Assembly (NCBI GenBank): GCA_013377075.1
Contig: JACABD010000008.1
Location: 9,119-73,118 of the forward strand
DNA length: 64,000 bases
Source of the DNA: Geobacteraceae bacterium
Lineage (GTDB): Bacteria > Desulfobacterota > Desulfuromonadia > Geobacterales > DSM-12255
Direction of reading: 5' to 3'
Below are positions 1,836 through 20,645 of the stretch, in pieces; position 1 is the stretch's first letter, and each line of letters begins with the position of its first letter. The notes under the pieces are model-generated. The model was not told the DNA's origin. It did no database searches and worked only from the letters and a program-made list of their open reading frames with translations. A program made the position numbers and the translations under genes.

Positions 1836-3008
1836 CTACGCAACAGTTTTTTTCAATAGCATCGCCACGATCTTGCTTGCACCGTCTCCGAGGTTCTCGC
1901 CGATCTGGACATTCAGTCCAGATTCGAGGAGCAGTTTTTTCCCCTCTTCAACTGTGCTGCCATCCATCCTGACAACAATCGGCAGTCTGCATTGAACCTC
2001 TGATGCCGCTTCTATGATCCCCTGGGCAATTACGTCACAACGCATTATTCCTCCGAAAATGTTGACGAAAACGCCCCTGACGTCGCAGTCTTGAAGGATT
2101 ATTTTGAAGGCTTCGGCAACCTTCTCTCTTGTGGAACCTCCGCCTACATCGAGGAAATTGGCTGGTTCAGCACCAAACTCCTTGAGTACATCCAGTGTTG
2201 CCATGGCAAGGCCGGCTCCATTCACCATGCAGCCAACGTTACCGGTCAGTTTTATGTATGAGAGATCATATTTCCCGGCACTTATTTCCAGGGGGTCAAG
2301 CTGGGAGTAGTCGAGCATGTCTGGATACTCACGATGGCGAAACATGGCATTATCGTCAAAATTGATCTTTGCATCCATTGCCATGAGCCAGCCAGCCTTT
2401 GTTTCAACTAGCGGGTTAATTTCGATAAGAAGGCAGTCCTTTTCAAGGGCACATCGGTAAAGGTTCTGAATAAGTTCTACACAGTCCTCACAGACCGTTC
2501 CTGTCAGGCCAAGCGCAATAGCGATTTTGCGAGCCTGAAATGGTTGCAGTCCTGTAAATGGGTCGATGTTGAGAAGATGGATCTTGTCAGGTGAGTTTCT
2601 GGCAACCTCCTCTATGTCTATGCCTCCCTCTGCGGAGGCAATAAGACAGAAACGTGATGATTCGCGGTCAAGGGTTATTGAGAGGTAGAATTCGCGGGCT
2701 ATCTCAACCGCCTCTTCAATGAGGATCCTCCTGACGCGCAAGCCTTCAGGGCCGGTCTGTGGGGTAATAAGCTTTTTCCCAAATAGCTCCTTGCCAAACT
2801 CCTGAGCCTGTTCGGGATGTTGAACCAGCTTTACCCCACCTGCTTTTCCGCGCCCACCAGCATAGATCTGTGCTTTGATTACGCAGTGGCCGCCCATCTC
2901 TTTGGCTGCACGTTCCACTTGATCCGCAGTAAGGGCAACACGGCCTCGTGGTACCGGGATAAAATAGCCGTTAAGTATATCTTTAGCCTGATATTCATGA
3001 ATATTCAT
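1836..3008 (-). CDS. sucC: Succinyl-CoA ligase subunit beta (ATP-grasp)
   Basis: MNIHEYQAKDIL... is the canonical SucC N-terminus, with GGRGKAGGVK. The internal ATG at 3008 is used rather than ORF start 3074. Lies directly upstream of sucD. Confidence 0.9.
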   Translation of the reverse strand: MNIHEYQAKDILNGYFIPVPRGRVALTADQVERAAKEMGGHCVIKAQIYAGGRGKAGGVKLVQHPEQAQEFGKELFGKKLITPQTGPEGLRVRRILIEEAVEIAREFYLSITLDRESSRFCLIASAEGGIDIEEVARNSPDKIHLLNIDPFTGLQPFQARKIAIALGLTGTVCEDCVELIQNLYRCALEKDCLLIEINPLVETKAGWLMAMDAKINFDDNAMFRHREYPDMLDYSQLDPLEISAGKYDLSYIKLTGNVGCMVNGAGLAMATLDVLKEFGAEPANFLDVGGGSTREKVAEAFKIILQDCDVRGVFVNIFGGIMRCDVIAQGIIEAASEVQCRLPIVVRMDGSTVEEGKKLLLESGLNVQIGENLGDGASKIVAMLLKKTVA

Positions 3009-3341
3009 GGGTCGCTCCGGTAAAAGGGTGATGTTGGTGTTGGTAAACTTTAACCGTTTCTGACGGTTTGACAACTACGGCAAGGTGAAAAATAAATAGT
3101 GAAAATGTATTATTTTTAGATAGGACGAATGCTTTGTTTAGGCATAAAGTGTGCACAATAATCATCAAGTAGAAAAGTGGATGTGGTTTTATATGCCCTT
3201 TTATCAAAGGGTTGCACTGATTAAGTAGATTTTGACAGGACGCCAGGCGACAGTTTTGACGCGTTTTAACGTTGGGTCTGCTGTGATTTCGCCGTAAACT
3301 TATTTTCAGGCTGAGAAAAACTATAAATAACAGGAATAAAT

Positions 3342-6300
3342 ATGTCTAACCATGGATGGAGGGTACAAGGTATGAACAGTAACTTTGCAAGATGGAGCGT
3401 GTCACAGATTTTATTGATCGTGATGCTCGTTGCAGCCGGTTCGGCGTTTGCCGCCGGAGATGCGCTGATCCACAACAGTAATAATCTCGGCACCTCAAAA
3501 GGTGTCTGGGGCGTTACTGGTGGGAAGTATGGACAGTTCACTTGTACAACCTGTCACAATAAGAGCACCAACAACGTCAAGCGGGTCGCTGATGTTGTAA
3601 CCGCTCCCCTCGGCAACTGGTCATCAAGCAAGGCGACCACGGTTGCGGTTGTGTTTAATAACATGACCGGTTTCGGCACCGATGCAGGCGGCCATACGAC
3701 ATCAACCAAGATATGTCAGGTCTGCCATACCAAGACTGCCTATCACCGCTACAACACAACAGGTCAAGCCGATCTCACCCACAACAACCAGGCTGACTGT
3801 ACGCAGTGTCACTCCCACGCAAAAGCTTTTGCAGCCTCATGTAACACATGCCACGGTTATCCGCCAAAAAATACGACACCAGGCGCAGACGGACTTGTCG
3901 GTGGGTCAAACCCGCAGACATACGCTCTTGGTGTAACACCTGCTTCTCCTGGTGCGCACGTAAAGCATGATAATGCCAACATGAAGTGTACAACCTGCCA
4001 CTCCGGTTTCCGTAATACAACTGCTCACCAGCGCCCGGCGGCTCAGTGGGGCAAGCTTGAGATGGGCTTTAACGCCAGCAACGCCAACTGGGCACAGTTT
4101 ACAGGGCCAACATGGACTGGCGGTTCTGCTACCGGCTCAAATGCGCTGAATACAGGGTACACATGGGTTGGTAACGGCGGAACAACAGTTCCAACAGCAG
4201 CAACAGCTACTGTTACATGTAGTGTATATTGCCATGGTAACTGGGCAAATTCAGGCGGTGGTGCCAATCCTTCATGGATAAATGGTTCTGCCGAGGCCAC
4301 CTGCGGTGCCTGCCACGGTGCCAGCGCAGCTACACCTCCACCAACCAATGCTCACGCTCGTCACGCACAGACATTAAGTGCCACCACACTCGGACTCTCC
4401 TGCGACAAGTGCCACGGTACACATGCTGACAACAGTCACGTAAACGGTTCGGTAAAGTGGGACGTTTCCGGTTTGGCTACAACATATGCAACAAGTCCGA
4501 AGTATAAGGGTTTCAATAACGTTTCAGGTGTAACAGGTCAGACTAATGCAAACGCACCAAGCGTTACATTCGGTTCCTGCTCCAACGTTTACTGCCACTC
4601 CAATGTTCAGGGTGCTAACGGTACAGGCGCCCCGACCAGCTTTGCAGCAGTTACCTGGAGCAGTGGCTCCGTAGCCTGCGACTCATGTCACTGGGCTACC
4701 GGTGGTGCATTCAAGATGATCAGCTCCGGTTCTCACCGTGCTCACGTGTCACGCGGCTACACATATAACTGTAATACCTGTCACAACGGTGCCGGTTCTG
4801 CAACTGCACTCCACGCAGACGGCAAGGTTCAGGTATCAATGGCATCAGGTACGTATTCACAGGCCGGTAAAAACGCTGGTGCTGCTGCATTCGGTAGCTG
4901 CGCAACTGTTTCCTGCCATGCCAGCACAACCCCGACTTGGGGCAGCACTCTTGCCGCAAACTGCCTTGGCTGCCATGGCGATAAAACCTCAGCAACTCTT
5001 TCAGGTGCACACAACAAGCATATGAATGATGCAACATTTGGCGGCAGCTTTAACTGTATTGACTGCCACGGAAGTGTTGTGTCTAGTAATACAGTTCTTT
5101 CAAACAAAGCTCTCCACACAAACGGTCTTATCAACTACTCCGGTGCTCTTTCCGGTAAGTATGCTGGCGTATCACCGGTAACATGTGCCACCCAGTACTG
5201 CCACAGTAACGGTAAAGGTACAGCCGCAGCTCCGCCAGCCTGGACCGGTTCTTTCACTGCTGGTACTACATGCTACAAGTGTCACGGTACATCCGGCACA
5301 ACCGGCGCGCCTGACAACAGTACACCGAACAGCCACCCGAAGCATGCTCCTCTTGCAACAGACTGCTGGAAGTGTCACTTCAAAACAGCAAGTAAGACAG
5401 CCGGTCAGCTTGCAACCGGCACAGTCGATCACCTTGATAAAAATATCGATGCACGTCTGGCCGTACCGTTTGTCGGACTTACAAACTACTCAGGTAGCTA
5501 CAGCAGCGCTGCTAAAACCTGTTCGGCAACATACTGCCACGGCGGTACCAACCCTGCAGCAACACCGGCATGGGGCACAGCAGCAAGCACTAACTGCAAC
5601 AGCTGTCACGTAACCAAGCCAACTGGCCTGTCAGCAGGTCACGCTTTCCACGTGATGTCTACTTCTACAAATTACAACTACACCCAGTCAGCAGCCAACA
5701 ACAGCACCGCCGCCGCATATAGCTTCAACTGCGCTGCCTGCCACGGCAATACCGCTGCAAAACACCTCAATGGTCCTGAATTTAATGGTGCTGATGCAAC
5801 AATTCAGTTCCTCTACTCATCTGCTGGTCGCGGTGCAGCTGCAAGCACTACTTACAATGCAAGTCGTGCAAATGCTGGAACTGATGCCCGCGGCTTCAAG
5901 TATGCAGTCGGTGCAAACGCAGCATGTAACAATACCTACTGCCACAGTAACGGTAAGTCAACTCTTGGAAACGGAATAAGTGCATCACTTAACTGGGGTT
6001 CAGCTACAACAGGTAACTGTACAGCTTGCCACGACAACGATAAGGTCAGTACAACTCTTTCAGGCGTACACGATAACCACCTCAATAAAGCTGCTACCGG
6101 TGGCGCATTCAAGTGTAAGGACTGCCACGCACAGACAATCAGCAATGCAGACAACCGCACTCTTACTGATAAGTCCAAGCACGTAAACAAAATTATTAAC
6201 TACTCCGGTGCTCTTGCCGGCAAGAATAAAAACTGCTCCAACATCTACTGCCACAGTAACGGTAGGGGCACTTATGCAAATCCTGTCGGTGGCTGGACAG

Positions 6301-8699
6301 GTGCAGTCATTGGTTGCAACGGTTGCCACGGAACTTCAGGCTCAACAGGTGCACCTGACAACGTAGTAAATGACAGTCACGCAAAGCATGCACCTACCTC
6401 AGCTCAGTGTTTCCGTTGCCACTTCAAGACTGCCAGTACAACTGTCGGACAACTTGTAACCGGTACGATTGATCACCTCGACGGCAACATCGATGCAAGG
6501 CTGACAAAGGTTAGTTCATTCACTACCTTCTCTGGTGTTCTCAATGCTAACAAGACTTGTTCAGCAACTTACTGCCATGGTGGCAGCGTAACAACACCGA
6601 TCTGGGGAACCGCAGGTAGTACGAACTGCAATAGTTGCCACGCAAGCAAGCCTAACGGCTTGTCAGCGGGCCACGCATTTCACATTATTTCAACTGCTAC
6701 CAACTACAACTATGGCAATGTAGCTGCTAACAACAGCACTTCAGCAGCATATAACTTCAACTGTGCCGTCTGCCACGGCAACACTTTATCACTACATGCC
6801 GATGGCCCAAGGGCAAGCGGGTCTGATGCAACAATCCAGTTCATGTACTCATCTGCAGGTCGCGGCCTGACACCAACAAATACCTGGAATACACCACGTA
6901 CAGGCACATCAGCTCCTGACAGCCGTGGCTTTAACTTCATGGTTGGTGCAAATGCAACATGTAATGCAACCTACTGCCACAGTAACGGTAAATCAGCTCT
7001 TGGCAACGGTATAAGCGCAACCCTTACTTGGAGTTCGGCAACAACCGGTACATGTACTGCATGCCACGGTAATGCCTCTTCAGCTAACGGTGTACTCTCT
7101 GGAGCACACTTCAGGCACTTCAGTACAACCAGCTTCAAGACAACATCAACACGCATAGGTTGTAAGGATTGCCACGCACAAACAGTTTCAGGTACTAACC
7201 TGACAATTACGAACAAGGCAAACCACGTTAACAAGCTTATCAACTACTCTGGTGGAATGGCCGGTAAGAACAAAACCTGTAACAACATCTACTGCCACAG
7301 TAATGGTAAGGGTGTATACAGCAACACAACATGGGCAACAACCAACGGGACAGGATGTAACTTCTGTCACGGCAGTGCTTCTGCACCGCTCACCTCTACT
7401 TACGCTCATACAAAACACCTTGCAACTGCTGGAATTAATTGCTCATCATGTCACAGTGCTACCACAACCACAAATTCGACTATTACAGGAACCAAGCATA
7501 TTGATGGTACAGTCGATCTTCAGCAAGGCGGGACATTCCTCTCCAGATCGGTTTCCTTCTCTTATGCCGGTGGTGGTACATGTAACAACATTAACTGTCA
7601 CGCTGTTCTTGGTGCTGGTGCAAGCAGTGCTACCTGGGGTGTAAGGGCTTCATGCGATACCTGCCATCCGAAAGCAAATCTTTCCGGTGCACACAAAACT
7701 CACATGGGTGCTCTTGATCTCACCAGTGCTTCAATTATGTACAATATGACAGCAAACCGCTCTGATCAGCTTGTCAGCGCTACCCAGCACGGTTTCGGTT
7801 GTGCAAACTGTCACCCGATGACTACTGCAAGCCACCTCAACGGCACAGTAGATGTTGATCTTAACAGGGTTAATGTTGCTGGTGTAAGCAAGCTGCGTTT
7901 CCTTAACCACTCAACAGCAGGCTATGTAGGCGGCAAATGCTCCAACATGTACTGCCACAGTAATGCTTCCAGAATAGAAGCAGAATCCAACGTCAAGTCT
8001 AACACTTCTCTTGCCTGGACTGACAAGTTTGCTAACTACACAGGCGCTTCAGCTGGCGTTAACAGAAAAGACAGGTGCGCACAGTGTCACCTCAACCAGC
8101 CGACAACAGGTGCTCACGCTGCTCACGCTGTCGGTAATCACTCCGATAACATCTATAATGGCAAGTCTGGAAAGATTGCAATCAGCAGCAGAGCAAACAC
8201 CGCCCACGGTAATGCAAACAACTCTACAACCATCGGCTGCTACATTTGCCATAATGGTGTTGTAACCTCAGCTGCTAACGATAAAAATACCAAATGCGTT
8301 GGCTGTCATACAATTGGCAACGCCTATGGCGCAAAACTGAAAGGTGACGCTACTATCGCCAACATCGCTCTCCACGTTAACGGTACAGGTGATATTCAGT
8401 TCGCTCAAATCAATATAAGAAGTAAAGCACAGATCAGACCTAAGCTTGCTTCCAATGCTAATAAAAACGGTTTTGACTTCTACTCAGGTGTATGGCAGCG
8501 GACTTCTTACAAGAATATGTCTACTCTCTCATACGACATATCCAAAGTAAGACTTGATCAGGCAACTACCTACACATACAGTACTCCGATGAACAGTTCT
8601 TGTAGTAACGTTGTCTGTCACAATGGCAAGTCACCTACATGGAACATGGCAGACTGGAATGATCCTAACAAGTGTATGGACTGCCACAACGCACTTTAA
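3342..8699 (+). CDS. Giant secreted multihaem c-type cytochrome (CX4CH...CXXCH repeat family), 1785 aa
   Basis: Signal peptide ...LLIVMLVAAGSAFA/AG. By eye I count 31 CXXCH, 12 CX4CH and 1 CX3CH, with no Cys seen outside these motifs. GGAGGG lies 8 nt upstream of the alternative ATG 3372, so the start is uncertain by 30 nt. Followed by a hairpin terminator. Confidence 0.9.
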   Translation: MSNHGWRVQGMNSNFARWSVSQILLIVMLVAAGSAFAAGDALIHNSNNLGTSKGVWGVTGGKYGQFTCTTCHNKSTNNVKRVADVVTAPLGNWSSSKATTVAVVFNNMTGFGTDAGGHTTSTKICQVCHTKTAYHRYNTTGQADLTHNNQADCTQCHSHAKAFAASCNTCHGYPPKNTTPGADGLVGGSNPQTYALGVTPASPGAHVKHDNANMKCTTCHSGFRNTTAHQRPAAQWGKLEMGFNASNANWAQFTGPTWTGGSATGSNALNTGYTWVGNGGTTVPTAATATVTCSVYCHGNWANSGGGANPSWINGSAEATCGACHGASAATPPPTNAHARHAQTLSATTLGLSCDKCHGTHADNSHVNGSVKWDVSGLATTYATSPKYKGFNNVSGVTGQTNANAPSVTFGSCSNVYCHSNVQGANGTGAPTSFAAVTWSSGSVACDSCHWATGGAFKMISSGSHRAHVSRGYTYNCNTCHNGAGSATALHADGKVQVSMASGTYSQAGKNAGAAAFGSCATVSCHASTTPTWGSTLAANCLGCHGDKTSATLSGAHNKHMNDATFGGSFNCIDCHGSVVSSNTVLSNKALHTNGLINYSGALSGKYAGVSPVTCATQYCHSNGKGTAAAPPAWTGSFTAGTTCYKCHGTSGTTGAPDNSTPNSHPKHAPLATDCWKCHFKTASKTAGQLATGTVDHLDKNIDARLAVPFVGLTNYSGSYSSAAKTCSATYCHGGTNPAATPAWGTAASTNCNSCHVTKPTGLSAGHAFHVMSTSTNYNYTQSAANNSTAAAYSFNCAACHGNTAAKHLNGPEFNGADATIQFLYSSAGRGAAASTTYNASRANAGTDARGFKYAVGANAACNNTYCHSNGKSTLGNGISASLNWGSATTGNCTACHDNDKVSTTLSGVHDNHLNKAATGGAFKCKDCHAQTISNADNRTLTDKSKHVNKIINYSGALAGKNKNCSNIYCHSNGRGTYANPVGGWTGAVIGCNGCHGTSGSTGAPDNVVNDSHAKHAPTSAQCFRCHFKTASTTVGQLVTGTIDHLDGNIDARLTKVSSFTTFSGVLNANKTCSATYCHGGSVTTPIWGTAGSTNCNSCHASKPNGLSAGHAFHIISTATNYNYGNVAANNSTSAAYNFNCAVCHGNTLSLHADGPRASGSDATIQFMYSSAGRGLTPTNTWNTPRTGTSAPDSRGFNFMVGANATCNATYCHSNGKSALGNGISATLTWSSATTGTCTACHGNASSANGVLSGAHFRHFSTTSFKTTSTRIGCKDCHAQTVSGTNLTITNKANHVNKLINYSGGMAGKNKTCNNIYCHSNGKGVYSNTTWATTNGTGCNFCHGSASAPLTSTYAHTKHLATAGINCSSCHSATTTTNSTITGTKHIDGTVDLQQGGTFLSRSVSFSYAGGGTCNNINCHAVLGAGASSATWGVRASCDTCHPKANLSGAHKTHMGALDLTSASIMYNMTANRSDQLVSATQHGFGCANCHPMTTASHLNGTVDVDLNRVNVAGVSKLRFLNHSTAGYVGGKCSNMYCHSNASRIEAESNVKSNTSLAWTDKFANYTGASAGVNRKDRCAQCHLNQPTTGAHAAHAVGNHSDNIYNGKSGKIAISSRANTAHGNANNSTTIGCYICHNGVVTSAANDKNTKCVGCHTIGNAYGAKLKGDATIANIALHVNGTGDIQFAQINIRSKAQIRPKLASNANKNGFDFYSGVWQRTSYKNMSTLSYDISKVRLDQATTYTYSTPMNSSCSNVVCHNGKSPTWNMADWNDPNKCMDCHNAL
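4962..7370 (+). repeat. In-frame tandem repeat inside the cytochrome gene, about 1.04-1.06 kb unit, about 2.3 copies
   Basis: Unit starts are at Cys codons 4962 (CLGCHGDKTSATLSGAHNKH), 6018 (CTACHDNDKVSTTLSGVHDNH) and 7053 (CTACHGNASSANGVLSGAHFRH). The near-identical DNA word tactgccacagtaa(c/t)ggtaa recurs at 5197, 5938, 6247, 6972 and 7291. Confidence 0.85.
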
Positions 8700-8742
8700 T
8701 AGTTTAACTTTATAGACGGATAGCTTAACATCCGCGAATCTG

Positions 8743-8778
8743 CCCCCCTGACCGATAGAGTCAGGGGGGTTCTTTTTT
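8743..8778 (+). terminator. Rho-independent terminator after the giant cytochrome
   Basis: 9-bp GC stem CCCCCCTGA (8743-8751) / TCAGGGGGG (8761-8769), 9-nt loop, then TTCTTTTTTGT. Confidence 0.85.
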
Positions 8779-8843
8779 GTGATATTGCCGATAGTGAAAA
8801 CATATGTATAATGCGAAATCTCAAAACTTCAGGAGGAATAAAT

Positions 8844-9380
8844 ATGGCAGAAGAAATGAAGGAGCCATGGCTTAACTATCTAGCGCTCACAACAGTCATA
8901 CTTGCAGTCTGTGCAACACTTTCTACGTTTAAGGGGGGTGGCTACTCGACACGTTCAGTTATGAGTCAGACCCAGGCATCAGATCAATGGGCCTTTTTCC
9001 AGTCAAAGAGTATCAAGAGTTATATTTATGAGATGCAAAAGGATAAGTTGGAGCTTGAGCTGAAGGCTGCAGGACCAAAAGTATCAGCTGAGCTATCCGG
9101 GGAGTATGTTAAGCGGATTGATGAATATGGTAAAAAAATTGTCAAATATGACAAGGAAAAAACCGAGATTCAGGCTGAAGCTAAAAAATTTGAAGAGATA
9201 AGAAATGATGCACAGCGTCATTCCCAGATTTTTGGTGTTGCGGTGATCTATCTGCAAATTGCCATTCTGCTTTCATCAATTGCGGCACTAATGAAGAAAA
9301 AAGTGCTCTGGGTAATGGGTGTTGCCATTGGTGCAGTCGGTATAGTTTATTTTGCCAATGGGTTCTTCTTATTTATGTAA
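8844..9380 (+). CDS. DUF4337-like membrane protein (coiled-coil flanked by N- and C-terminal TM segments)
   Basis: MAEEMKEPWLNYLALTTVILAVCATLSTFKGG...QASDQWAFFQSKSIK... resembles the DUF4337 family. AGGAGG lies 7 nt upstream of ATG 8844. Confidence 0.55.
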   Translation: MAEEMKEPWLNYLALTTVILAVCATLSTFKGGGYSTRSVMSQTQASDQWAFFQSKSIKSYIYEMQKDKLELELKAAGPKVSAELSGEYVKRIDEYGKKIVKYDKEKTEIQAEAKKFEEIRNDAQRHSQIFGVAVIYLQIAILLSSIAALMKKKVLWVMGVAIGAVGIVYFANGFFLFM

Positions 9381-9787: not shown

Positions 9788-10642
9788 ATGCAATATGTCC
9801 TGAAGGTCTGCCAAGTGGCAGTGGTCTCCATGTTTCTGATATCGGCTTCGATTGCCTTTAGCGATGACGGCAAGAGTCTGTTTGACAAGCAGTGCAGCAG
9901 TTGCCACTCCATTGGCGGAGGGGAGGGGGGAGGCCCTGATTTGAAAGGGGTTGGGGCCAAGCGGCCAGAGGCGTGGCTGTTGCGGGTCATTGTCGAGCCG
10001 GACAAGCTGACTGCCGATAAGGATTCGGTACAGGAGGGGCTGGTCAAGAAATACGGCTACGAGATGCCGAATGTGGGTGTCAGTCGCGATGATGCCAAAA
10101 AAATCATAGCTTATCTGAAGAAGAGCGGTGGTGGTGATGGGCAGGTAAATGGTGAAAAGAGTGCTCCGTCAGCTTCCGCGAAAGATGGTGCTGTTGTGAC
10201 TGCTGCGCCGGAAGCAGCAGTTGAGACTTCACCAAAGCTTGCCCTGCTGGTGTTGACACCGGAGCTTATTGCCAATGGCCGTGCCCTGTTCATTGGCGAA
10301 AAGAAATTTGCCAAGGGTGGGGCGCCATGCGCATCCTGTCATGCATTCGGATCTCAGGGGGTGGTAAGTGGCAATCTTGCAGCAGATCTCTCAGGAATGT
10401 ACGAAAAAATGGGGGAGCAGGGGGTGCGTGGTGTTCTCAAGGCGCTAAAATTCCCGACCATGAAAAAGATCTATGCTGATAAGTCGCTTACCGACGAGGA
10501 GATTACAGCACTAGTTGCATTTACCAAGGACGGAGCCGCTCAAAAAAGTCCGGCAGGTGGCGGCAGTTTCCCGCTGGCAGGTGTGGCTCTTCTGGTCTGT
10601 GCAATCATAGCTCTTAGCATCTACAAGAGGAGGATCGGCTGA
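9788..10642 (+). CDS. Membrane-anchored dihaem cytochrome c, NarC-like first gene of the nar cluster
   Basis: Signal peptide ...SMFLISASIAFS/DD and two CXXCH sites (CSSCH, CASCH) separated by an Ala/Gly/Ser-rich linker. C-terminal TM FPLAGVALLVCAIIALSIY. The stop overlaps the narG ATG (TGATG). Confidence 0.8.
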   Translation: MQYVLKVCQVAVVSMFLISASIAFSDDGKSLFDKQCSSCHSIGGGEGGGPDLKGVGAKRPEAWLLRVIVEPDKLTADKDSVQEGLVKKYGYEMPNVGVSRDDAKKIIAYLKKSGGGDGQVNGEKSAPSASAKDGAVVTAAPEAAVETSPKLALLVLTPELIANGRALFIGEKKFAKGGAPCASCHAFGSQGVVSGNLAADLSGMYEKMGEQGVRGVLKALKFPTMKKIYADKSLTDEEITALVAFTKDGAAQKSPAGGGSFPLAGVALLVCAIIALSIYKRRIG

Positions 10643-13600
10643 TGTCGCGAGATAGAATTAAAGACGAGGTATGTCCGGCAGGCCAGGAGTGGGAAGAGTT
10701 TTACCGGAACCGCTGGCAATATGACAAAGTGGTGCGTAGCGCCCACGGGGTTAACTGCACCGGCGCCTGTAGCTGGATGGTGCATGTAAAGGACGGCATT
10801 GTCGCCTGGGAGTTGCAAGCCAACGACTACCCACAGTTTAACGGTGACCTTCCCAATCATGAGCCCCGCGGCTGCCCCCGGGGAATCAGTTTTTCCTGGT
10901 ATCTCTACAGCCCGCTACGGGTCAAGCACCCCTACATGCGCGGTGTTCTGATCGATCTCTGGCGTCAGGCCAGAGAAACTCATGCCGATCCGGTCGAGGC
11001 GTGGAAGAGCATCGTCGAGAACCCCGAATCCCGCGAAAGCTATGTTACCAAGCGTGGCATGGGGGGCTTCCGCCGTGCGACCTGGGACGAAGCGAATGAG
11101 CTGATCGCAGCATCATCCCTCTATACAGCCAAGAAGCATGGCCCGGACCGGGTAATCGGCTTTTCTCCCATCCCGGCCATGTCCATGATCAGTTACGCTG
11201 CCGGAACTCGCTTTCTCCAGCTGCTAGGCGGCGTTGCCATGAGTTTCTACGACTGGTACTGCGACCTGCCACCGGCTTCGCCACAGGTCTGGGGTGAGCA
11301 GACCGATGTCAACGAATCGGCTGACTGGTATAACGCTTCCTACATCGTCCTCTGTGGATCAAATGTCCCCATGACCCGCACCCCGGATGCCCATTTCATG
11401 ACCGAGGCCCGCTATCGCGGCACCAAGGTAGTGGTCATGTCGCCGGATTATAATATGGCCTGCAAGTTTGCCGACGCCTGGATGCCAGTTGAGCAGGGGC
11501 ATGACGGCGCCTTCTGGATGGCGGTCAACCATGTCATCCTGACCGAATTCTACGCCAATCGCCAGGTCCCTTTCTTCGACGATTATGTGCGCAAGTACAC
11601 CGATCTGCCGTTTCTGGTCAAACTATCCGAGAAGGACGGCACCCTGCGTCAGGGAGAATTCCTGCGTGCCGCTGAACTGGAGAGGTGTGCAGATATTGAG
11701 AACGCCGACTGGACCCTTTGTGTCGGTGACAGTGCCGGTAACGTCCGCATCCCCCATGGCAGCCTCGGTTCTCGCTGGAGCAAGCAGGAGGGGAACTGGA
11801 ATCTGGACATGGTGGATATGGTGGATGGCGGCGACATCGACTGTGCCATGACCAATCTGGGGCAGGAGTCCAGGGCTGTCCGTTTTACCTTTGAAGCCGA
11901 CGGAGACATTGTCAGAAATGTGCCGATCCGGCGCGTCTTGACAAAGGATGGCGAGGTTATTGTCGCCACCGTGTTCGACCTGATGATGGCTCAGTTCGGC
12001 GTTCCGCGGGGACTTGACGGTGATTATCCGAAAGACTATCAGGATGACAAGCCATTCACTCCGGCGTGGCAGGAGAAATATACCGGCATAGCCGCCGAGA
12101 GCCTGATCACCATGGCTCGTGAATGGGCAGTGAACGGCGAGCAGAGTAGCGGTCGCAACATGATCATTGTCGGCGCTGGCATCAACCACTGGTACCACAA
12201 CGACCTGATCTACCGGGCCGCCATCACCGCTCTGATATTGACCGGCAGCGTTGGCAGGAACGGTGGTGGGCTCGGCCATTACGTCGGTCAGGAGAAGGTC
12301 GTGCCGCTTGCGCCCTGGACCAGTATCGCCATGGCCCAGGACTGGACAAAGGCTTCACGGCTGCAGAATACACCTAGTTTCTGGTACATGCACTCCGATC
12401 AATGGCGCTATGACCGTAACTTTGTCGACTATTTCAAACCGGAGACCGGCGAAAACATGCCGATGCACACCGCCGACTTTAATGCCAAAGCGGTCCGACT
12501 CGGCTGGCTCCCTTTCTCCCCGCACTTTAACGAGAGCCCGGTCCGTCTAATGGAGCAGGCTGCTGCAGCAGGTGCTACGACCGATGACGAGGTCCGCGCC
12601 TGGTTGGTCACGCGTCTCAAGAGCGGTGAGACACGTTTTGCCATTGAAGATCCGGATGGCGAAGGTAATTCGCCCAAGGTCTGGTTTATCTGGCGCGGCA
12701 ATGCCATCTCCTCAAGTGCCAAAGGGCATGAATTCTTCCTCAAGCATGTCATCGGCGCTCCTAACAGCAGCTTTACCGCCAGAGAGGCCGCCAAGGGGCA
12801 GGTCAAGGATATTGTCTGGCATGAGAAGGCGCCCACCGGAAAAATGGATCTGGTGGTTGACCTGAACTTCCGCATGGATACTTCGACCCTCTATTCTGAC
12901 ATCGTCCTCCCGGCAGCAACCTGGTACGAGAAATCCGATCTGAATACCACCGACATGCACTCATTTGTCAACTGCATGGACGCCGCTGTTGATCCCGCCT
13001 GGGAGTCCAAATCAGACTGGAATATCTTTGCCGGTATCGCCAAAAAGGTCAGTGAACTGGCACCAAATCACTTTCCAGCTCCGTTCAAGGATATTCTGGC
13101 GACACCGCTACTGCACGACACACCTGGTGAAATCGCCCAGCGGAGCGTCAAGGACTGGAAACTGGGGGAGTGTGAGGCAATCCCTGGCAAGACCATGCCG
13201 AATCTCCCCATAGTGGAGCGCGACTACGTCAACCTCTACAACCGTTTCATGTCGCTCGGGCCACACATCGGCCATCTCCATGCCCACGGAGTGAATTTTG
13301 AGGCTGAGGATGTGCACGAAAAGCTGCTCAAGGAGATGCCGACCCGTTTCTGGGGTGGCAAAACCTGCGTTGACCTAGAGGATGCCCGTATCGTCGCTGA
13401 CGTGCTGATGGCTTTTGCGCCGGAAACCAACGGCGAACTCGCACACCGCGCCTATCAGAACCTGGAGAAGCGGGTCGGCAAGCCGCTCAGCCAGATTTCA
13501 GCCGGTAACCGCGACTTCCGTGTCAGCTGGGAAGATATCACCCAGAAACCGCAGCGTTTTATCAGTACGCCGGTCTGGAGCGGCCTGGTCAACGAGAATC

Positions 13601-14217
13601 GACCTTATGCACCGTACACGCTGAACGTGGAGCATGGCGTCCCCTGGCGCACCCTCTCCGGCCGCCAGTCCCTTTATCTTGATCATCCTTATTACGGTGA
13701 GTTTCACGAGGGGCTGCCAACCTTCAAAGCCAAGCTTGACCCGGCTATACTCGATGAAACCGAGGGTGAAACCGGTCTGGTTCTGAATTTTCTTACGCCG
13801 CACGGTAAGTGGGGCATCCACTCCACTTACACCGATAACCAGCGGATGCTGACCCTTTCCCGGGGCGGCCCGGTCGTCTGGCTCAATCATGAAGACGCGG
13901 CCGGTGCCGGTATTGAAGACAATGAGGCGATTGAGGTCTTTAACGCCAACGGTGTTGTTACCAGCCGCGCCTGCGTTTCGTCACGAATTCCAAAAGGGGC
14001 TGCCGTTATGTATCACGCCCCGGAAAGAACCCTGGACATCAAAAAATCCCGCAAAAGCGGCAAGCGCGGCGGAGTGCACAACAGCCTCTCCCGCATCCGC
14101 CTGAAGCCGACGCTGATGCTTGGCGGTTATGCACAGTTCAGTTACTACTTCAACTACTGGGGGCCGACCGGCGTTAACCGGGATAGCTACGTGGTTGTCA
14201 GAAAGTTGAGGGGGTGA
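10642..14217 (+). CDS. narG: Respiratory nitrate reductase alpha subunit (Mo-bisMGD)
   Basis: 1191 aa. The N-terminal HGVNCTGACSW is the NarG-type FS0 cluster motif (H-x3-C-x3-C). No twin-arginine signal, so the active site is cytoplasmic. Followed by narHJI. Confidence 0.93.
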   Translation: MSRDRIKDEVCPAGQEWEEFYRNRWQYDKVVRSAHGVNCTGACSWMVHVKDGIVAWELQANDYPQFNGDLPNHEPRGCPRGISFSWYLYSPLRVKHPYMRGVLIDLWRQARETHADPVEAWKSIVENPESRESYVTKRGMGGFRRATWDEANELIAASSLYTAKKHGPDRVIGFSPIPAMSMISYAAGTRFLQLLGGVAMSFYDWYCDLPPASPQVWGEQTDVNESADWYNASYIVLCGSNVPMTRTPDAHFMTEARYRGTKVVVMSPDYNMACKFADAWMPVEQGHDGAFWMAVNHVILTEFYANRQVPFFDDYVRKYTDLPFLVKLSEKDGTLRQGEFLRAAELERCADIENADWTLCVGDSAGNVRIPHGSLGSRWSKQEGNWNLDMVDMVDGGDIDCAMTNLGQESRAVRFTFEADGDIVRNVPIRRVLTKDGEVIVATVFDLMMAQFGVPRGLDGDYPKDYQDDKPFTPAWQEKYTGIAAESLITMAREWAVNGEQSSGRNMIIVGAGINHWYHNDLIYRAAITALILTGSVGRNGGGLGHYVGQEKVVPLAPWTSIAMAQDWTKASRLQNTPSFWYMHSDQWRYDRNFVDYFKPETGENMPMHTADFNAKAVRLGWLPFSPHFNESPVRLMEQAAAAGATTDDEVRAWLVTRLKSGETRFAIEDPDGEGNSPKVWFIWRGNAISSSAKGHEFFLKHVIGAPNSSFTAREAAKGQVKDIVWHEKAPTGKMDLVVDLNFRMDTSTLYSDIVLPAATWYEKSDLNTTDMHSFVNCMDAAVDPAWESKSDWNIFAGIAKKVSELAPNHFPAPFKDILATPLLHDTPGEIAQRSVKDWKLGECEAIPGKTMPNLPIVERDYVNLYNRFMSLGPHIGHLHAHGVNFEAEDVHEKLLKEMPTRFWGGKTCVDLEDARIVADVLMAFAPETNGELAHRAYQNLEKRVGKPLSQISAGNRDFRVSWEDITQKPQRFISTPVWSGLVNENRPYAPYTLNVEHGVPWRTLSGRQSLYLDHPYYGEFHEGLPTFKAKLDPAILDETEGETGLVLNFLTPHGKWGIHSTYTDNQRMLTLSRGGPVVWLNHEDAAGAGIEDNEAIEVFNANGVVTSRACVSSRIPKGAAVMYHAPERTLDIKKSRKSGKRGGVHNSLSRIRLKPTLMLGGYAQFSYYFNYWGPTGVNRDSYVVVRKLRG

Positions 14218-14221
14218 AGCG

Positions 14222-15673
14222 ATGAACGTCAGAGCACAACTGGTAATGGTATTCAATCTTGACAAATGCATCGGCTGCCACGCCTGCAGCATCTCCTGCA
14301 AGAACATCTGGACCGACAGGAAGGGTGCCGAGTACATGTGGTGGAACAACGTCGAAACCAAGCCTGGCGTCGGTTATCCGAAAAACTGGGAAAATCAGGA
14401 CAGATTCAAGGGTGGCTGGCGGCGTGATGACGGCAAGCTGAAGTTGCGGGCTCTGGGGAAAGGGCCGACACTTCTCAATATGTTCTTCCAGCCCAACATG
14501 CCGAAACTCGATGATTACTACGAGCCGTTTGACTTCGATTACAGCAATCTCTACAAGGCGCCTCCCGGCAGCGACCAGCCGGTGGCTGAGGCAATTTCAC
14601 AAATCTCCGGCAAGCGGATGGAAGAGATCAAGAACGGCCCCAACTGGGATGACGACCTCTCCGGCTCGCAGATCTATGCCGTCCAGGATGTTAATCTCGA
14701 AGACAGCACCCTGGTCGCTGACTACGGTCGCATGTTCATGCAGTATCTCCCCCGTATCTGCAATCACTGCCTCAATCCGGCCTGCGTCGCTTCCTGCCCG
14801 TCCAGAGCCATCTACAAGCGGGGTGAAGACGGTGTCGTTCTGGTGGATCAGGAGGTCTGCAAGGGGTGGCGGTTCTGCACCAGCGCCTGTCCATACAAGA
14901 AAGTCTATTTCAACTGGCAGAGCGGCAAGGCGGAAAAGTGTATCTTCTGCTTCCCCCGCACCGAGTCCGGCCAGTGCAACGCCTGCGCCCACAGCTGCGT
15001 CGGCAGGATCCGTCATGTCGGCGTGCTGCTCTATGATGCTGATCGGGTTGAAGCGGCGCTCTTAAAAGAGGATGACCAGTTGGTAGCGGCCCATCGCGAC
15101 GTTATTCTTGACCCCCACGATCCGCAGGTCCGGGAAGCCGCCCGCAAGAATGGCGTTAGCGATCAGTGGCTTGAGGCAGCCGACAAATCCCCGGTATACG
15201 CTCTGGTGAAGGAGTTTGCCGTGGCCCTGCCGCTGCACCCTGAATTCAGGACCATGCCGATGGCCTACTATATTCCGTCCCTCTCCCCGGTTATTTCCAG
15301 CGGCGGAGATCTCCATACGCTGGCCGACCATGGTACTTTCCCGCTGCTGGAAACGATGCGTGCGCCGATCAGCTTCCTGGCAAGCCTTCTCTCAGGCGGC
15401 AACCAGGAGATAATTGCCGAGGTGCTGCGCAAGCAGATCGCCCTGCGGCTCTTCAAACGGGCCGAAAATCTCGGCCAGTCAATTGAATCGTCCATTCTGA
15501 AAAATGCCGGTCTGGATGAGGCTGGTGCCAACAAGCTCTACCGCCTCTTCACCATCGCCCCCTATCGTGAACGCTTCATTGTACCGACCCAACAGCGGGA
15601 GGTACAGAATCCGGAAGAGCGCAAGGGCTCCAGCGGCTTTGGTATTCTGAAGAAGACCAGGAGGGCGAAGTGA
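14222..15673 (+). CDS. narH: Respiratory nitrate reductase beta subunit (Fe-S)
   Basis: Four Cys clusters: CIGCHACSISCK, CNHCLNPACVASCP, CKGWRFCTSACP and CIFCFPR...CAHSC. Confidence 0.93.
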   Translation: MNVRAQLVMVFNLDKCIGCHACSISCKNIWTDRKGAEYMWWNNVETKPGVGYPKNWENQDRFKGGWRRDDGKLKLRALGKGPTLLNMFFQPNMPKLDDYYEPFDFDYSNLYKAPPGSDQPVAEAISQISGKRMEEIKNGPNWDDDLSGSQIYAVQDVNLEDSTLVADYGRMFMQYLPRICNHCLNPACVASCPSRAIYKRGEDGVVLVDQEVCKGWRFCTSACPYKKVYFNWQSGKAEKCIFCFPRTESGQCNACAHSCVGRIRHVGVLLYDADRVEAALLKEDDQLVAAHRDVILDPHDPQVREAARKNGVSDQWLEAADKSPVYALVKEFAVALPLHPEFRTMPMAYYIPSLSPVISSGGDLHTLADHGTFPLLETMRAPISFLASLLSGGNQEIIAEVLRKQIALRLFKRAENLGQSIESSILKNAGLDEAGANKLYRLFTIAPYRERFIVPTQQREVQNPEERKGSSGFGILKKTRRAK

Positions 15674-16218
15674 CCAGAGCCGACAGCTACGAAGCCCTCT
15701 CGCGGATGATAGATTATCCGGCGGAGAAAGCCGGACTGCAGAGTGACTGCACTATGGTGAGTGGCTTCATGAAGCAGCAGAAGATGAATGTTAGGCTGCT
15801 TTCGGATTTTGCTGATTTTGCCGAGACAGCAACTCTGGCTGCTCTTCAGGAGGAGTACGTCGCCACCTTTGATTTCAATCCGGCCACAGCCCCCTATCTC
15901 GGCCATCACCTGTTTGGTGACAATCAAAAGAAGGGGGGGTACATGATCATGCTGAAGCAGGAGTACCAGCGGTGCGGCTACAGTCCTGAAGGGGTCGAAC
16001 TGCCTGATCACCTCTCCGTGGTGCTGGGATTCCTGGCCTATCTCGCCCGTCACGAAGGTGGAGTTCAAAGGCAGAAATTCATTGCCGATTCTGTTTTGCC
16101 CGGGGTTGAACGTCTGCTTGCCGCCTTTGGTGAGAGGCAGGAGTCGCCGTGGAAAACTCTGGTTGAAACAGCAAGGCTGCTCTGTGCTGAAGATTGCAAG
16201 GAGGTGCATTCATGTTAG
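15670..16218 (+). CDS. narJ: Nitrate reductase maturation chaperone (NarJ/TorD-type)
   Basis: 182-aa cytosolic protein between narH and narI. The GTG start overlaps the narH stop (GTGA). Position and size fit NarJ; sequence similarity was judged only loosely by eye. Confidence 0.65.
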   Translation: MTRADSYEALSRMIDYPAEKAGLQSDCTMVSGFMKQQKMNVRLLSDFADFAETATLAALQEEYVATFDFNPATAPYLGHHLFGDNQKKGGYMIMLKQEYQRCGYSPEGVELPDHLSVVLGFLAYLARHEGGVQRQKFIADSVLPGVERLLAAFGERQESPWKTLVETARLLCAEDCKEVHSC

Positions 16219-16898
16219 ACAGTTTCATTTTTGTCGTTATGCCCTACGCCGCCCTGGCGCTAATGATCTTTGTTACACCCTACCGCTATTTCAGCAACCG
16301 GCTGACCTGGACAGCCTATTCAACCCAATTTCTGGAGCGGGATAAACTCTTCTGGGGTTCCGTGCCGTGGCATTTCGGTATTCTTTTAGTGCTTCTTGGC
16401 CACTTTGCCGGTGTTGTCTGTCCCCATGGCATGGCCAGGTTACTGGCCAACCAGCAGATGCTGGTGCTCCTTGAGAGCATCGGCCTTGCCGCAGGTCTGC
16501 TTGCGCTCCTTGGCAGCGTCATGCTGCTCTTGAGGCGGATAAATGATGGGACTTTGAAGCGGGTCACCTTTTGTAGTGACTGGGTGCTCCTCTATCTGCT
16601 CATCATGCAGGCAGCCACAGGGATCTATATCGCCACATTCATGCGCTGGGGCTCGGTCTGGTATCTGCATACCGCAGTGCCGTATTTTTACTCGCTCCTC
16701 TCATTTAAGCCGGAGCTTGGCTATGTAGCGGACTTCCCGCTGATCTTCAAACTGCACTCGGCCGGAGCCTTCCTGATACTGGCGCTGCTCCCCTTTACCA
16801 AGCTGGTGCATCTGCTCTTCTGGCCGCTGGCATTTCTGAGAGATCCACCGATTCTTTACCGCTGGCGGTCGCAGCGGGGCAACAGCAGGGATTTTTAA
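16212..16898 (+). CDS. narI: Respiratory nitrate reductase gamma subunit (dihaem b, membrane)
   Basis: 5 TM segments with His pairs PWHFGILLVLLGHF and KLHSAGAFLILALLPFTKLVH. AGGAGG lies 8 nt upstream of ATG 16212, preferred over the TTG at 16194. Confidence 0.85.
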   Translation: MLDSFIFVVMPYAALALMIFVTPYRYFSNRLTWTAYSTQFLERDKLFWGSVPWHFGILLVLLGHFAGVVCPHGMARLLANQQMLVLLESIGLAAGLLALLGSVMLLLRRINDGTLKRVTFCSDWVLLYLLIMQAATGIYIATFMRWGSVWYLHTAVPYFYSLLSFKPELGYVADFPLIFKLHSAGAFLILALLPFTKLVHLLFWPLAFLRDPPILYRWRSQRGNSRDF

Positions 16899-16925
16899 GG
16901 ATCTACCTCAAGGAGGAGTTTGCAG

Positions 16926-18446: not shown

Positions 18447-18466
18447 CGGTAGATGAGGAGGCAACA

Positions 18467-19840: not shown

Positions 19841-19897
19841 TTTCTGTAGATGCAGGTAACTCACCCAAGCCATAACCACAACAAGGAGACATTAAGC

Positions 19898-20170: not shown

Positions 20171-20179
20171 GAGATACCC

Positions 20180-20620: not shown

Positions 20621-20645
20621 TAAATATGGATGAATGTTTTAGGCA

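What the first reader, a model, noticed from the sequence alone, without database searches (positions are those of the whole stretch)
3342..8699. 1785-aa secreted cytochrome with 44 putative haem sites built from about 13 CX4CH-CXXCH-CXXCH triads
Reading the translation directly, I count 31 CXXCH, 12 CX4CH and 1 CX3CH, and I saw no Cys outside these motifs. After a 5-haem N-terminal segment the motifs recur as triads (for example CSNVYCH, CDSCH, CNTCH). This is the pattern of the Geobacter CxxxxCH...CXXCH domain family (TIGR01904 / Pfam GSu_C4xC__C2xCH as I recall), whose members have no assigned function. The mature protein is rich in Thr, Ser, Gly, Ala and Asn and very poor in Glu, Arg and Leu. 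That composition suggests an extended extracytoplasmic haem array. The gene stands alone with its own terminator next to the nitrate respiration cluster. It is a candidate long-range electron conduit or haem wire subunit.
Basis: partly seen in the sequence, partly recalled or inferred. Interest (0 to 1): 0.7.

Follow-up and report, generated by a model that had tools for sequence, protein, structure and literature searches.

The report
Giant 44-haem cytochrome, known Geobacter family
This gene encodes an exported protein predicted to carry 44 haem groups in a row, one more member of a known but biochemically unstudied family of giant Geobacter cytochromes thought to relay or store electrons, so it is a sound but not new finding.

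Summary
Window 3342-8699 (+) is one uninterrupted ORF of 1785 aa. It has 88 Cys, all of them in 44 haem-binding motifs: 31 CXXCH, 12 CX4CH and 1 CX3CH. Shuffled sequences give 0.6 motifs on average.

It is a clear member of the CxxxxCH/CxxCH-domain family (TIGR01904, E 8e-107, 13 domains; PF09698). The identical protein is already in NCBI under that name (NVN98377.1, Geobacteraceae MAG). Relatives number in the hundreds and carry 23-73 haems.

The protein is best read as: signal peptide, 4-haem N-terminal part, 12 c7-like tri-haem modules, 4-haem C-terminal part. Forty-four non-motif His are conserved, enough for every haem to be bis-His. That points to electron transfer or storage rather than catalysis.

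Twelve of the 13 aligned sequences, the window protein included, have exactly 44 haems. One has 53, in line with the internal 9-haem duplication.

The adjacent nar cluster is a lineage-specific insertion of about 13 kb, not a conserved partner. No solved structure is related by sequence, and both AlphaFold models failed (pLDDT about 39). Location (periplasm or cell surface) and role (conduit or capacitor) remain inferred.

Verdict: real, correctly classified, a new member of a known kind, of moderate-to-low interest.

The parts
3342..8699 (+). Gene for the 1785-aa, 44-haem-motif c-type cytochrome (stop codon included). NCBI's deposited version starts at the second ATG, 3372 (1775 aa).
   Evidence: AGGA lies 7 nt before ATG 3342 and GGAGG before ATG 3372.
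3342..3452 (+). Sec-type signal peptide (res 1-37): basic n-region, hydrophobic core ILLIVMLVAAGSAFA, predicted cleavage AFA|AG. There is no Cys, so no lipobox.
   Evidence: Read from the translation. Several orthologues (e.g. P0003, P0002, P0006/P0007) have an equivalent N-terminus followed directly by the invariant L-x-HNS motif. No signal-peptide predictor was available.
3453..3944 (+). N-terminal 4-haem part (res 38-201): haem 1 (C68) plus a c7-like tri-haem stretch (C125, C153, C167). H44, H135, H147 and H159 are invariant.
   Evidence: PF14522 matches res 118-171.
3945..8099 (+). Array of 12 c7-like tri-haem modules (res 202-1586; haems 5-40). Each reads H-x2-H ... CXXCH ... H ... CX3/4CH ... 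W ... CXXCH.
   Evidence: Module alignment A4, with invariant H, H, CxxCH, H, Cx4CH, W, CxxCH. 9 of 10 modules scanned alone span PF14522 almost end to end. There are three conserved non-motif His per unit.
5142..7235 (+). Internal tandem duplication of a 9-haem block: res 601-950 and res 951-1298, whose corresponding units are 59-66 % identical.
   Evidence: Relative P0002 has 53 = 44 + 9 haems.
8100..8696 (+). C-terminal 4-haem part (res 1587-1785; C1633, C1652, C1754 as CX4CH, C1778), containing the SKAQ motif. The protein ends 4 residues after the last haem His.
   Evidence: The C-terminal 386 aa (res 1400-1785, window 7539-8696) recur in 281 clusters at 50 % identity (E<=1e-10). In most of the 150 listed, the match ends within a few residues of the protein's C-terminus.
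8742..8780 (+). Intrinsic terminator: GCCCCCCTGAC...GTCAGGGGGGT followed by TCTTTTTTGT.
3085..3113 (+). Weak sigma-70-like promoter match in the 267-nt region shared with divergent sucC. This is a consensus match only.
   Evidence: 9/12 matches; the number of such sites in the region does not exceed the shuffles. No riboswitch or other Rfam family is found here.

Best explanation
The gene encodes a Sec-exported, soluble c-type cytochrome of about 207 kDa as holoprotein, with no membrane anchor. It binds 44 haems, all probably bis-His ligated. The chain is one polypeptide: a 4-haem N-terminal part, twelve tandem c7-like tri-haem modules, and a 4-haem C-terminal part. It most likely acts as a single-chain haem wire in the cell envelope or on the cell surface of a Geobacteraceae bacterium. 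Electrons would enter at one end and hop from haem to haem along a rod tens of nanometres long, connecting respiratory electron carriers to distant or insoluble partners in extracellular electron transfer. What is shown: the reading frame, the motifs, family membership, conservation of every motif and of 44 extra His, the modular anatomy, and monocistronic termination. What is inferred: haem incorporation, close haem packing and an extended shape (by analogy with the solved 12-haem, 12-nm GSU1996), location, and physiological partners.
For: All 88 Cys lie in 44 motifs, against 0.6 expected. TIGR01904 scores 349 bits in 13 domains. PF09698, PF14522, PF14537 and PF22113 are all above their cut-offs. 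All 44 motifs are invariant in 13 sequences that share only 34-66 % identity, and 12 of the 13 have exactly 44 haems. Every triad has exactly three non-motif His, and the total of conserved non-motif His is 44, so no haem is obviously left open for a substrate. In the H-x2-H-first frame each module covers the c7 profile end to end (9/10 modules; invariant pattern in A4). The protein has a signal peptide but no lipobox or further hydrophobic segment. The haem density is 39.7 aa per haem, and the Thr/Ser/Asn/Gly/Ala-rich, Glu-poor composition is in line with an extracytoplasmic protein. Array length varies within the family (23-73 haems), and a C-terminal part is shared by 281 clusters at 50 % identity. 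This suits a wire of adjustable length with fixed ends. Published context: GSU1996 is a 12-haem chain of c7-type domains with 3-5 A edge-to-edge haem distances (PMC10138318). AlphaFold-based 'nanowire-like' predictions exist for Desulfuromonadia cytochromes with 27 and more haems, which are predicted extracellular and longer than the periplasm is wide (PMC11492766). CX3CH and CX4CH were shown by mass spectrometry to bind haem in MmcA (PMC11024163).
Against: Nothing is known experimentally for this protein, and I found no biochemical or structural study of any family member. Both AlphaFold2 models were unusable (mean pLDDT 39.6 and 38.6), so shape and haem spacing are untested. There is no significant sequence link to any solved structure (best E 0.004-0.005, motif-level only). 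No porin, secretion system or other EET gene is nearby, so export beyond the periplasm is unsupported. Genomic context is not conserved outside a narrow clade. A wire and a capacitor cannot be told apart from sequence.
Confidence: 0.5

Rival explanations
1. Periplasmic electron capacitor. The protein stays in the periplasm and stores up to 44 electrons, so that metabolism can continue when external acceptors are briefly absent. This is the role proposed for the monomeric 'nanowires of haems' GSU1996, GSU0592 and GSU2210.
For: The anatomy is the same as under the main explanation: a Sec signal, no anchor, all haems bis-His. No secretion or porin genes are nearby. The capacitor role is the published view for monomeric many-haem Geobacter cytochromes (PMC10138318; PMC2825233 cites the electron-storage capacity of cells).
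Against: By the GSU1996 scale of about 1 nm per haem, a 44-haem rod would be about 40 nm or more, longer than the quoted periplasmic width of about 17 nm (PMC11492766). Storage does not obviously need a haem number conserved at exactly 44. The Glu-poor, Thr/Ser/Asn-rich composition resembles surface proteins more than periplasmic c7 (my inference).
Confidence: 0.3
2. Dedicated redox partner of nitrate/nitrite respiration. It would shuttle electrons to the neighbouring NarGHI or to the octahaem NrfA-like nitrite reductase.
For: In the window the gene lies about 1 kb from the nar cluster. The same is seen in L009. An NrfA-like gene (7 CXXCH + CXXCK, no nrfH) is a conserved neighbour in L001, L002/L005, L007 and L019.
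Against: The gene has its own strong terminator. The nar island is absent from the syntenic loci L001, L002/L005, L007 and L019. The whole neighbourhood, including sucCD, BamD, BipA, TilS and FtsH, is collinear in these close relatives, so adjacency reflects shared ancestry rather than functional linkage. DUF4337 is on the opposite strand in L002, where a NIR_SIR gene also intervenes. More distant 44-haem relatives (L078, L079, L080) have unrelated neighbours. NarG lacks a Tat-type N-terminus in the match (TIGR01580, res 14-1190), so it is probably cytoplasm-facing and out of reach of an exported cytochrome; this last step is inference.
Confidence: 0.07
3. Subunit of a polymerised cytochrome filament of the OmcS/OmcE/OmcZ kind.
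For: Only general points: it is a multihaem, exported Geobacteraceae protein.
Against: There is no sequence relation to any solved filament subunit. It has 44 haems per chain against 4-8 in known filaments (background knowledge). The non-motif His are all accounted for within modules, although the two C-terminal haems have no His of their own within res 1740-1785.
Confidence: 0.03
4. A catalytic multihaem enzyme with a substrate-binding haem.
For: None specific. Weak motif-level profile matches to NrfA structures (E 0.005-0.02).
Against: There is no CXXCK or other atypical proximal ligand. Forty-four conserved distal His serve 44 haems. There is no match to any enzyme family above its cut-off.
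Confidence: 0.02

Closest known systems
CxxxxCH/CxxCH-domain c-type cytochromes (NCBIfam TIGR01904, Pfam PF09698 GSu_C4xC__C2xCH) of Geobacteraceae, e.g. the 44-haem proteins of Geobacter argillaceus (P0006), Geotalea daltonii (P0005) and Geotalea toluenoxydans (P0048)
   Same: The domain, the order of motifs, the His ligand pattern and the Trp between CX4CH and CXXCH are the same. The haem number is 44 in 12 of the 13 aligned sequences, the window protein included. The chromosomal position next to sucCD is the same in G. argillaceus and several MAGs.
   Different: Identity to named species is only 34-46 %. The window copy has a nar island inserted downstream. Other lineages carry the gene in tandem sets of three giant paralogues. 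I found no biochemical or structural study of any member.
GSU1996, GSU0592 and GSU2210: monomeric 'nanowires of haems' made of c7-type tri-haem domains (structure 3OV0; 12 haems in 12 nm)
   Same: Both are a single polypeptide of tandem tri-haem modules with the c7 ligand order H-x2-H, CXXCH, H, CXXCH, CXXCH. Both match PF14522 and are exported and soluble (PMC10138318).
   Different: The middle haem of each module here uses CX4CH and is followed by an invariant Trp. The modules are 88-139 aa here, which I recall as longer than GSU1996's domains (background knowledge). GSU1996 has one His-Met haem per domain, whereas this protein has three conserved His and no conserved Met. It has 44 haems rather than 12 or 27. 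There is no detectable pairwise or profile similarity to the solved chains.
Uncharacterised 'nanowire-like' giant multihaem cytochromes of Desulfuromonadia (27-haem G. metallireducens cluster; OmcA/GSU2884, OmcG, OmcH) described by Soares et al. 2024 (PMC11492766)
   Same: Both concern tens of haems on one chain in Geobacterales, predicted to be extended wires longer than the periplasm, with no porin partner and no known function.
   Different: I could not test whether those particular proteins carry the TIGR01904 domain or are homologous to this one. Their models come from AlphaFold, whereas mine failed.
OmcS, OmcE and OmcZ extracellular cytochrome filaments
   Same: The proposed job is the same: moving electrons over long distances along stacked haems outside the cytoplasm.
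   Different: Those are polymers of 4-8-haem subunits, while this is one 44-haem chain. No sequence similarity was found.
Tri-haem cytochrome c7 (PpcA family) and tetrahaem c3
   Same: The order of ligands and motifs in each module is the same, and c3 also uses CX4CH motifs. Matches to PF14522, PF14537 and PF02085 are seen.
   Different: c7 and c3 are stand-alone proteins of about 70-110 aa. Here the module is repeated 12-13 times with longer loops. Similarity is at profile level only, with 3 of 10 single modules above the Pfam cut-off.

Membership tests
TIGR01904 / PF09698 CxxxxCH...CXXCH-domain cytochromes | HMM score above the curated cut-off | tested here: met
   TIGR01904.2 scores 349.1 bits (cut-off 27), E 8e-107, 13 stretches. 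PF09698 scores 101.6 bits (cut-off 21.7), 10 stretches.
TIGR01904 / PF09698 CxxxxCH...CXXCH-domain cytochromes | Repeated CX4CH followed at a short distance by CXXCH | tested here: met
   There are 13 such pairs (12 CX4CH, 1 CX3CH). The gap to the next CXXCH is 14-39 residues, each with a Trp in between.
TIGR01904 / PF09698 CxxxxCH...CXXCH-domain cytochromes | Occurrence in Geobacter and relatives, several large paralogues per genome | tested here: met
   75 loci were found in Geobacter, Geotalea, Geomonas, Citrifermentans, Desulfuromonadaceae and a few Nitrospirota MAGs. One MAG holds up to 7 loci. The window's own protein is labelled Geobacteraceae.
TIGR01904 / PF09698 CxxxxCH...CXXCH-domain cytochromes | Covalent haem at each motif | not testable with these tools
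   This needs haem staining or mass spectrometry. CX3CH and CX4CH haem attachment has been shown in another protein, MmcA (PMC11024163).
c7-type multidomain cytochromes (GSU1996 type) | Tandem tri-haem modules with the c7 order of ligands and motifs | tested here: met
   A4 shows invariant H, H, CxxCH, H, Cx4CH, CxxCH. PF14522 scores 136 bits overall. 9 of 10 single modules span profile positions about 2-8 to 66-67 of 67.
c7-type multidomain cytochromes (GSU1996 type) | Detectable sequence homology to solved c7 or GSU1996 chains | tested here: not met
   The best match to a c7 chain (1ehj) is E 0.099 with the whole-protein profile. No c7 chain appears with the module profile. hhalign to PpcA gives 6 % probability.
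c7-type multidomain cytochromes (GSU1996 type) | One His-Met haem per domain | tested here: not met
   Each unit has three conserved non-motif His. Met is rare (19 in 1748 aa) and no Met column is conserved.
c7-type multidomain cytochromes (GSU1996 type) | c7 three-dimensional fold and an extended haem chain | tested here: inconclusive
   The AlphaFold2 models had mean pLDDT 39.6 and 38.6, so no fold search was run.
OmcS/OmcE/OmcZ filament-forming cytochromes | Homology to a filament subunit | tested here: not met
   No filament chain appears among the PDB matches down to E = 10, nor down to E = 1 with the single sequence.
OmcS/OmcE/OmcZ filament-forming cytochromes | Polymerisation into micrometre filaments | not testable with these tools
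   This needs microscopy of native material.
MtrC/OmcA-type outer-surface decahaem lipoproteins and porin-cytochrome conduits | Full MtrC domain II/IV match, a lipobox, and adjacent porin and periplasmic cytochrome genes | tested here: not met
   PF22113 scores 62 bits but covers only profile positions 79-166 of 176. There is no Cys in the signal peptide. No porin or MtrA-like gene occurs anywhere in the 64-kb window.

The most novel reading that the evidence does not exclude
The 44-haem proteins form an orthologous class whose length is under selection. They would act as a molecular ruler-wire of about 40-50 nm with specialised end parts. This wire would bridge the inner-membrane quinol oxidoreductases, across the periplasm and beyond the outer membrane, without a porin-cytochrome complex or polymerisation. 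In this lineage it would link extracellular electron exchange to the newly acquired nitrate/nitrite ammonification genes beside it. That would be a third architecture for long-range electron transfer in bacteria, besides filaments and porin-cytochrome conduits.
Probability: 0.07. Interest if true: 0.75.

Novelty: new member of a known kind. Interest (0 to 1): 0.3.

Why it matters
If these giant single-chain cytochromes are working wires, they are self-contained conductors of defined length, tens of nanometres long and encoded by one gene. That would be of interest for understanding how Geobacteraceae reach insoluble electron acceptors, and for bioelectronic materials.

The family has no solved structure, and I found no biochemical study of any member. 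The orthologous class with a conserved haem number and a simple modular build (4 + 12x3 + 4) is therefore a reasonable target for expression and cryo-EM.

For the genome scan itself the result is modest. The gene is correctly recognised by standard annotation, and the idea is already in the literature.

Tried and rejected
1. Structure prediction. AlphaFold2 was run with 25-sequence alignments for res 28-1200 and res 1193-1785. Mean pLDDT was 38.6 and 39.6. The models are unusable, so I did not run fold search, which would have given meaningless matches.

2. Sequence search of the PDB with the single protein, the full-length profile and the module profile. Only motif-level matches came back (E >= 0.004).

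It aligned the H-x2-H...CXXCH stretch in the expected register, but at 6 % probability, which is not evidence.

4. GEMM/c-di-GMP or cGAMP riboswitch upstream, as seen for several G. sulfurreducens cytochrome genes (PMC1950547). None was found at gathering score in the window, nor at E <= 1 in 2950-3450.

5. Functional linkage to nar or the NrfA-like gene by conserved neighbourhood. I rejected this because the whole region is collinear among close relatives and the link is absent in more distant 44-haem relatives.

6. Using the haem-free N-terminal extensions of some paralogues (P0018, P0033, P0047) as a clue to location. Pfam recognises nothing there.

7. 'The C-terminal part is the most conserved region'. 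This holds for a subset of relatives but not across all 119. Only about half of the relatives carry it.

8. N-glycosylation sequons are somewhat enriched (51 against 37 +/- 5). This is largely explained by repeated NYSG/NxT motifs, and I did not pursue it.

9. I could not establish whether OmcG, OmcH or OmcA of G. sulfurreducens carry this domain. The Kim et al. 2006 paper is not held.
Full report
**1. The observation**

Window 3342..8699 on the + strand is a single ORF of 1785 codons with no internal stop. A scripted recount gives 88 Cys and 94 His. Every Cys belongs to one of 44 haem-attachment motifs: 31 CXXCH, 12 CX4CH and 1 CX3CH.

Shuffling the protein 2000 times gives a mean of 0.64 motifs and a maximum of 4. 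The five other reading frames of the same DNA hold 0-1 motifs and 45-124 stops. The feature is therefore real and in one frame.

The composition claim also holds. The mature protein is A 12.7, T 12.2, G 10.9, S 10.2, N 9.7 %, with E 0.3, R 1.9 and L 3.9 %.

A strong intrinsic terminator follows the stop codon: an 11-bp stem with 8 G-C pairs and a T-run at 8742-8780. Upstream is a 267-nt region shared with the divergent sucC gene. No Rfam family matches there, including the GEMM riboswitches found before several Geobacter cytochrome genes (PMC1950547).

**2. Family**

NCBIfam TIGR01904 ('CxxxxCH/CxxCH domain c-type cytochrome') matches at E 8e-107, 349 bits against a cut-off of 27, in 13 stretches. 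Pfam gives:
- PF14522 Cytochrome_C7, 2.9e-40
- PF09698 GSu_C4xC__C2xCH, 3.5e-29 in 10 stretches
- PF14537
- PF22113

The identical protein, starting at the second ATG, is already in NCBI nr. It is NVN98377.1, 'MAG: CxxxxCH/CxxCH domain-containing protein [Geobacteraceae bacterium]'.

The word-based search returned 646 relatives at E <= 1e-10. Among the 121 proteins held after that search (the window's own two entries plus 119 relatives), haem-motif counts run from 23 to 73, with peaks at 35, 43 and 44.

A scan of one genome per species found 75 loci. They lie in Geobacter, Geotalea, Geomonas, Citrifermentans, Geomobilimonas and Desulfuromonadaceae, plus a few Nitrospirota/Thermodesulfovibrionales MAGs, often with several copies per genome.

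**3. Anatomy**

A better frame emerges from the non-motif histidines. Every triad has exactly three of them: an H-x2-H pair between its second and third motif, and one His after the third. Nearly all are invariant in 13 sequences that share only 34-66 % identity.

Starting each module at the H-x2-H pair gives the following order:
- H-x2-H
- CXXCH
- H
- CX4CH
- W
- CXXCH

This is the order of ligands and motifs in tri-haem cytochrome c7. Nine of ten such modules, scanned alone, span the PF14522 profile from about position 2-8 to 66-67 of 67. Their E-values are 1e-6 to 4e-3, and three are above the Pfam cut-off.

An alignment of 31 modules has only these residues invariant. All 13 CX3/4CH...CXXCH pairs have the Trp in between.

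In this frame the protein reads as follows:
- signal peptide, res 1-37
- 4-haem N-terminal part, res 38-201
- 12 tri-haem modules, res 202-1586
- 4-haem C-terminal part, res 1587-1785

This gives 4 + 36 + 4 = 44 haems. It also explains why the chain ends four residues after a CXXCH, much as c7 ends shortly after its last haem motif.

Residues 601-950 and 951-1298 are a tandem duplication of a 9-haem block, with corresponding units 59-66 % identical. The relative P0002 has 53 = 44 + 9 haems.

The C-terminal 386 residues recur in 281 clusters at 50 % identity (E <= 1e-10) out of 1.84 billion representatives. In most of the 150 listed, the match ends within a few residues of the protein's C-terminus, and these proteins are 198 to 3815 aa long. 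About half of the closest 120 relatives have this C-terminal part; the others end differently.

**4. What the conservation says**

All 44 motifs are invariant across the 13 aligned sequences. Twelve of the thirteen, the window protein included, have exactly 44 haems.

The conserved non-motif His (present in at least 69 % of sequences) number 6 + 3 + 30 + 5 = 44. That is one distal ligand per haem. Met is rare and not conserved. There is no CXXCK or other sign of an open catalytic haem.

The protein evolves much faster than its neighbours: 42-62 % identity, against 80-95 % for SucC, SucD and BipA in the same loci. Yet it keeps every haem-binding residue. This is the pattern expected for a scaffold whose job is to hold haems.

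**5. Context**

Upstream lie glycosyltransferase genes and divergent sucDC. Downstream lie DUF4337, then a dihaem cytochrome c, narGHJI, two NarK-type transporters, a CopD/cytochrome-b5 fusion and a hemerythrin. After these come an NrfA-like gene, BamD, BipA, TilS and FtsH.

The related loci L001 (60-62 % identical cytochrome) and L002/L005 (G. argillaceus, 42-46 %) have the same backbone but no nar genes. So do L007 and L019. In L001, DUF4337 and the NrfA-like gene are about 230 bp apart. The roughly 13-kb nar block is therefore a lineage-specific insertion, shared at least with L009. Its G+C is 55.4 % against 49.5 % for the window.

The whole region is collinear in these close relatives, so the recurring NrfA-like neighbour is not evidence of a functional link. 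More distant 44-haem relatives lie in unrelated contexts. These include tandem sets of three giant family members in Geotalea toluenoxydans and one metagenome contig.

Nothing else in the 64-kb window relates to cytochrome export, porins or maturation.

**6. Structure**

No solved structure is related by sequence:
- single-sequence phmmer, best E 0.66
- full-length profile, best E 0.005 to an NrfA
- module profile, best E 0.004 to reaction-centre cytochromes, over motif-length stretches only

hhalign of the module profile to PpcA aligns H-x2-H...CXXCH in register, but at 6 % probability.

Two AlphaFold2 runs with 25-sequence alignments gave mean pLDDT 39.6 and 38.6. I therefore made no fold comparison. 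The c7-like nature of the modules rests on Pfam profile coverage and on the ligand pattern, not on a model.

**7. Mechanism**

The best-supported reading is a Sec-exported, unanchored electron-transfer protein that holds 44 low-spin bis-His haems. The apoprotein is about 180 kDa and the holoprotein about 207 kDa, with pI 8.9 and 39.7 residues per haem.

The solved dodecahaem GSU1996 is a chain of four c7-type domains, 12 nm long, with 3-5 A between haem edges (PMC10138318). By analogy, 44 haems would make a rod of roughly 40 nm or more along which electrons hop.

Two physiological roles are published for such proteins. One is a long-distance conduit. Soares et al. 2024 (PMC11492766) predict similar giants to be extracellular and longer than the periplasm is wide. 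The other is a periplasmic capacitor (PMC10138318).

I favour the conduit at 0.5 against 0.3, for three reasons:
- the expected length
- the fixed haem number
- the surface-protein-like composition

None of this is shown. A dedicated link to nitrate or nitrite respiration (0.07), a polymerising filament subunit (0.03) and an enzyme (0.02) are less likely, for the reasons given under the rivals.

**8. Novelty and verdict**

But the protein is already deposited and named, and the domain family already has curated models in NCBIfam (TIGR01904) and Pfam (PF09698). Desulfuromonadia cytochromes with up to 87 motifs have been catalogued, and 'nanowire-like' single-chain giants have been discussed in print (PMC11492766).

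This analysis adds four things:
- the module frame (4 + 12x3 + 4)
- the one-to-one count of conserved distal His
- the 9-haem duplication
- the demonstration that nar adjacency is an insertion

It is a new member of a known kind. Interest is about 0.3, because I found no structure and no assigned function for any member.

Noticed in passing
window 9788-22121: The nitrate-respiration block is a lineage-specific insertion of about 13 kb between DUF4337 and the NrfA-like gene. It holds a dihaem cytochrome c whose stop overlaps the narG start, narGHJI, two NarK-type transporters, a CopD/cytochrome-b5 fusion and a hemerythrin. In locus L001 the two flanking genes are about 230 bp apart. G+C is 55.4 % against 49.5 % for the window. 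L009 also has cytochrome c + narG (95 % identical) right after its giant cytochrome.
   Followed up: partly
window 22597-24201: The NrfA-like protein (PF02335, 4.8e-65) has eight motifs, 7 CXXCH plus CIQCK at residue 202. That makes it an octahaem nitrite-reductase-like enzyme with an N-terminal c7/c3-like tri-haem extension. No nrfH is adjacent. It is a syntenic neighbour in several related loci.
   Followed up: partly
L078 8001-21358 and L080 8001-21328: In Geotalea toluenoxydans and in one metagenome contig, the 44-haem relative is the first of three consecutive giant cytochrome genes with gaps of 13-112 bp, which look like operons. The third gene in L080 has no Pfam record. In L078 an extracellular contractile injection system cluster (eCIS_core, CIS_TMP) lies directly upstream.
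   Followed up: no
P0018, P0033, P0039, P0045, P0047 and others (relatives, not in the window): Some family members carry haem-free N-terminal extensions of 450-1000 residues. These are Thr/Ser/Ala/Val-rich and come before the conserved L-x-HNS start of the cytochrome part. Pfam recognises nothing in the three I scanned (P0018, P0033, P0047).
   Followed up: partly
window 3453-8696 (mature protein): N-x-S/T sequons are enriched (51 against 37 +/- 5 in shuffles, 0.35 % of shuffles reach 51). A glycosyltransferase cluster lies upstream of sucCD in all syntenic loci. No link between the two is shown, and repeated NYSG/NxT motifs explain much of the excess.
   Followed up: no
window 57430-58329: There is a lone Cas6-family ORF (PF10040, 7.5e-13) next to an FdhD/MobA-like fusion gene (56092-57423). 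I did not look for a CRISPR array or other cas genes.
   Followed up: no
window 1-64000: No Rfam family reaches its gathering score anywhere in the 64 kb, so no tRNA, riboswitch or sRNA family is detected.
   Followed up: no
window 8811-9380: The DUF4337 gene (189 aa, hydrophobic segments at both ends) is the immediate downstream neighbour of the giant cytochrome. It is also nearby in L001, L003, L002/L005, L007 and L019, but on either strand. Its function is unknown.
   Followed up: partly
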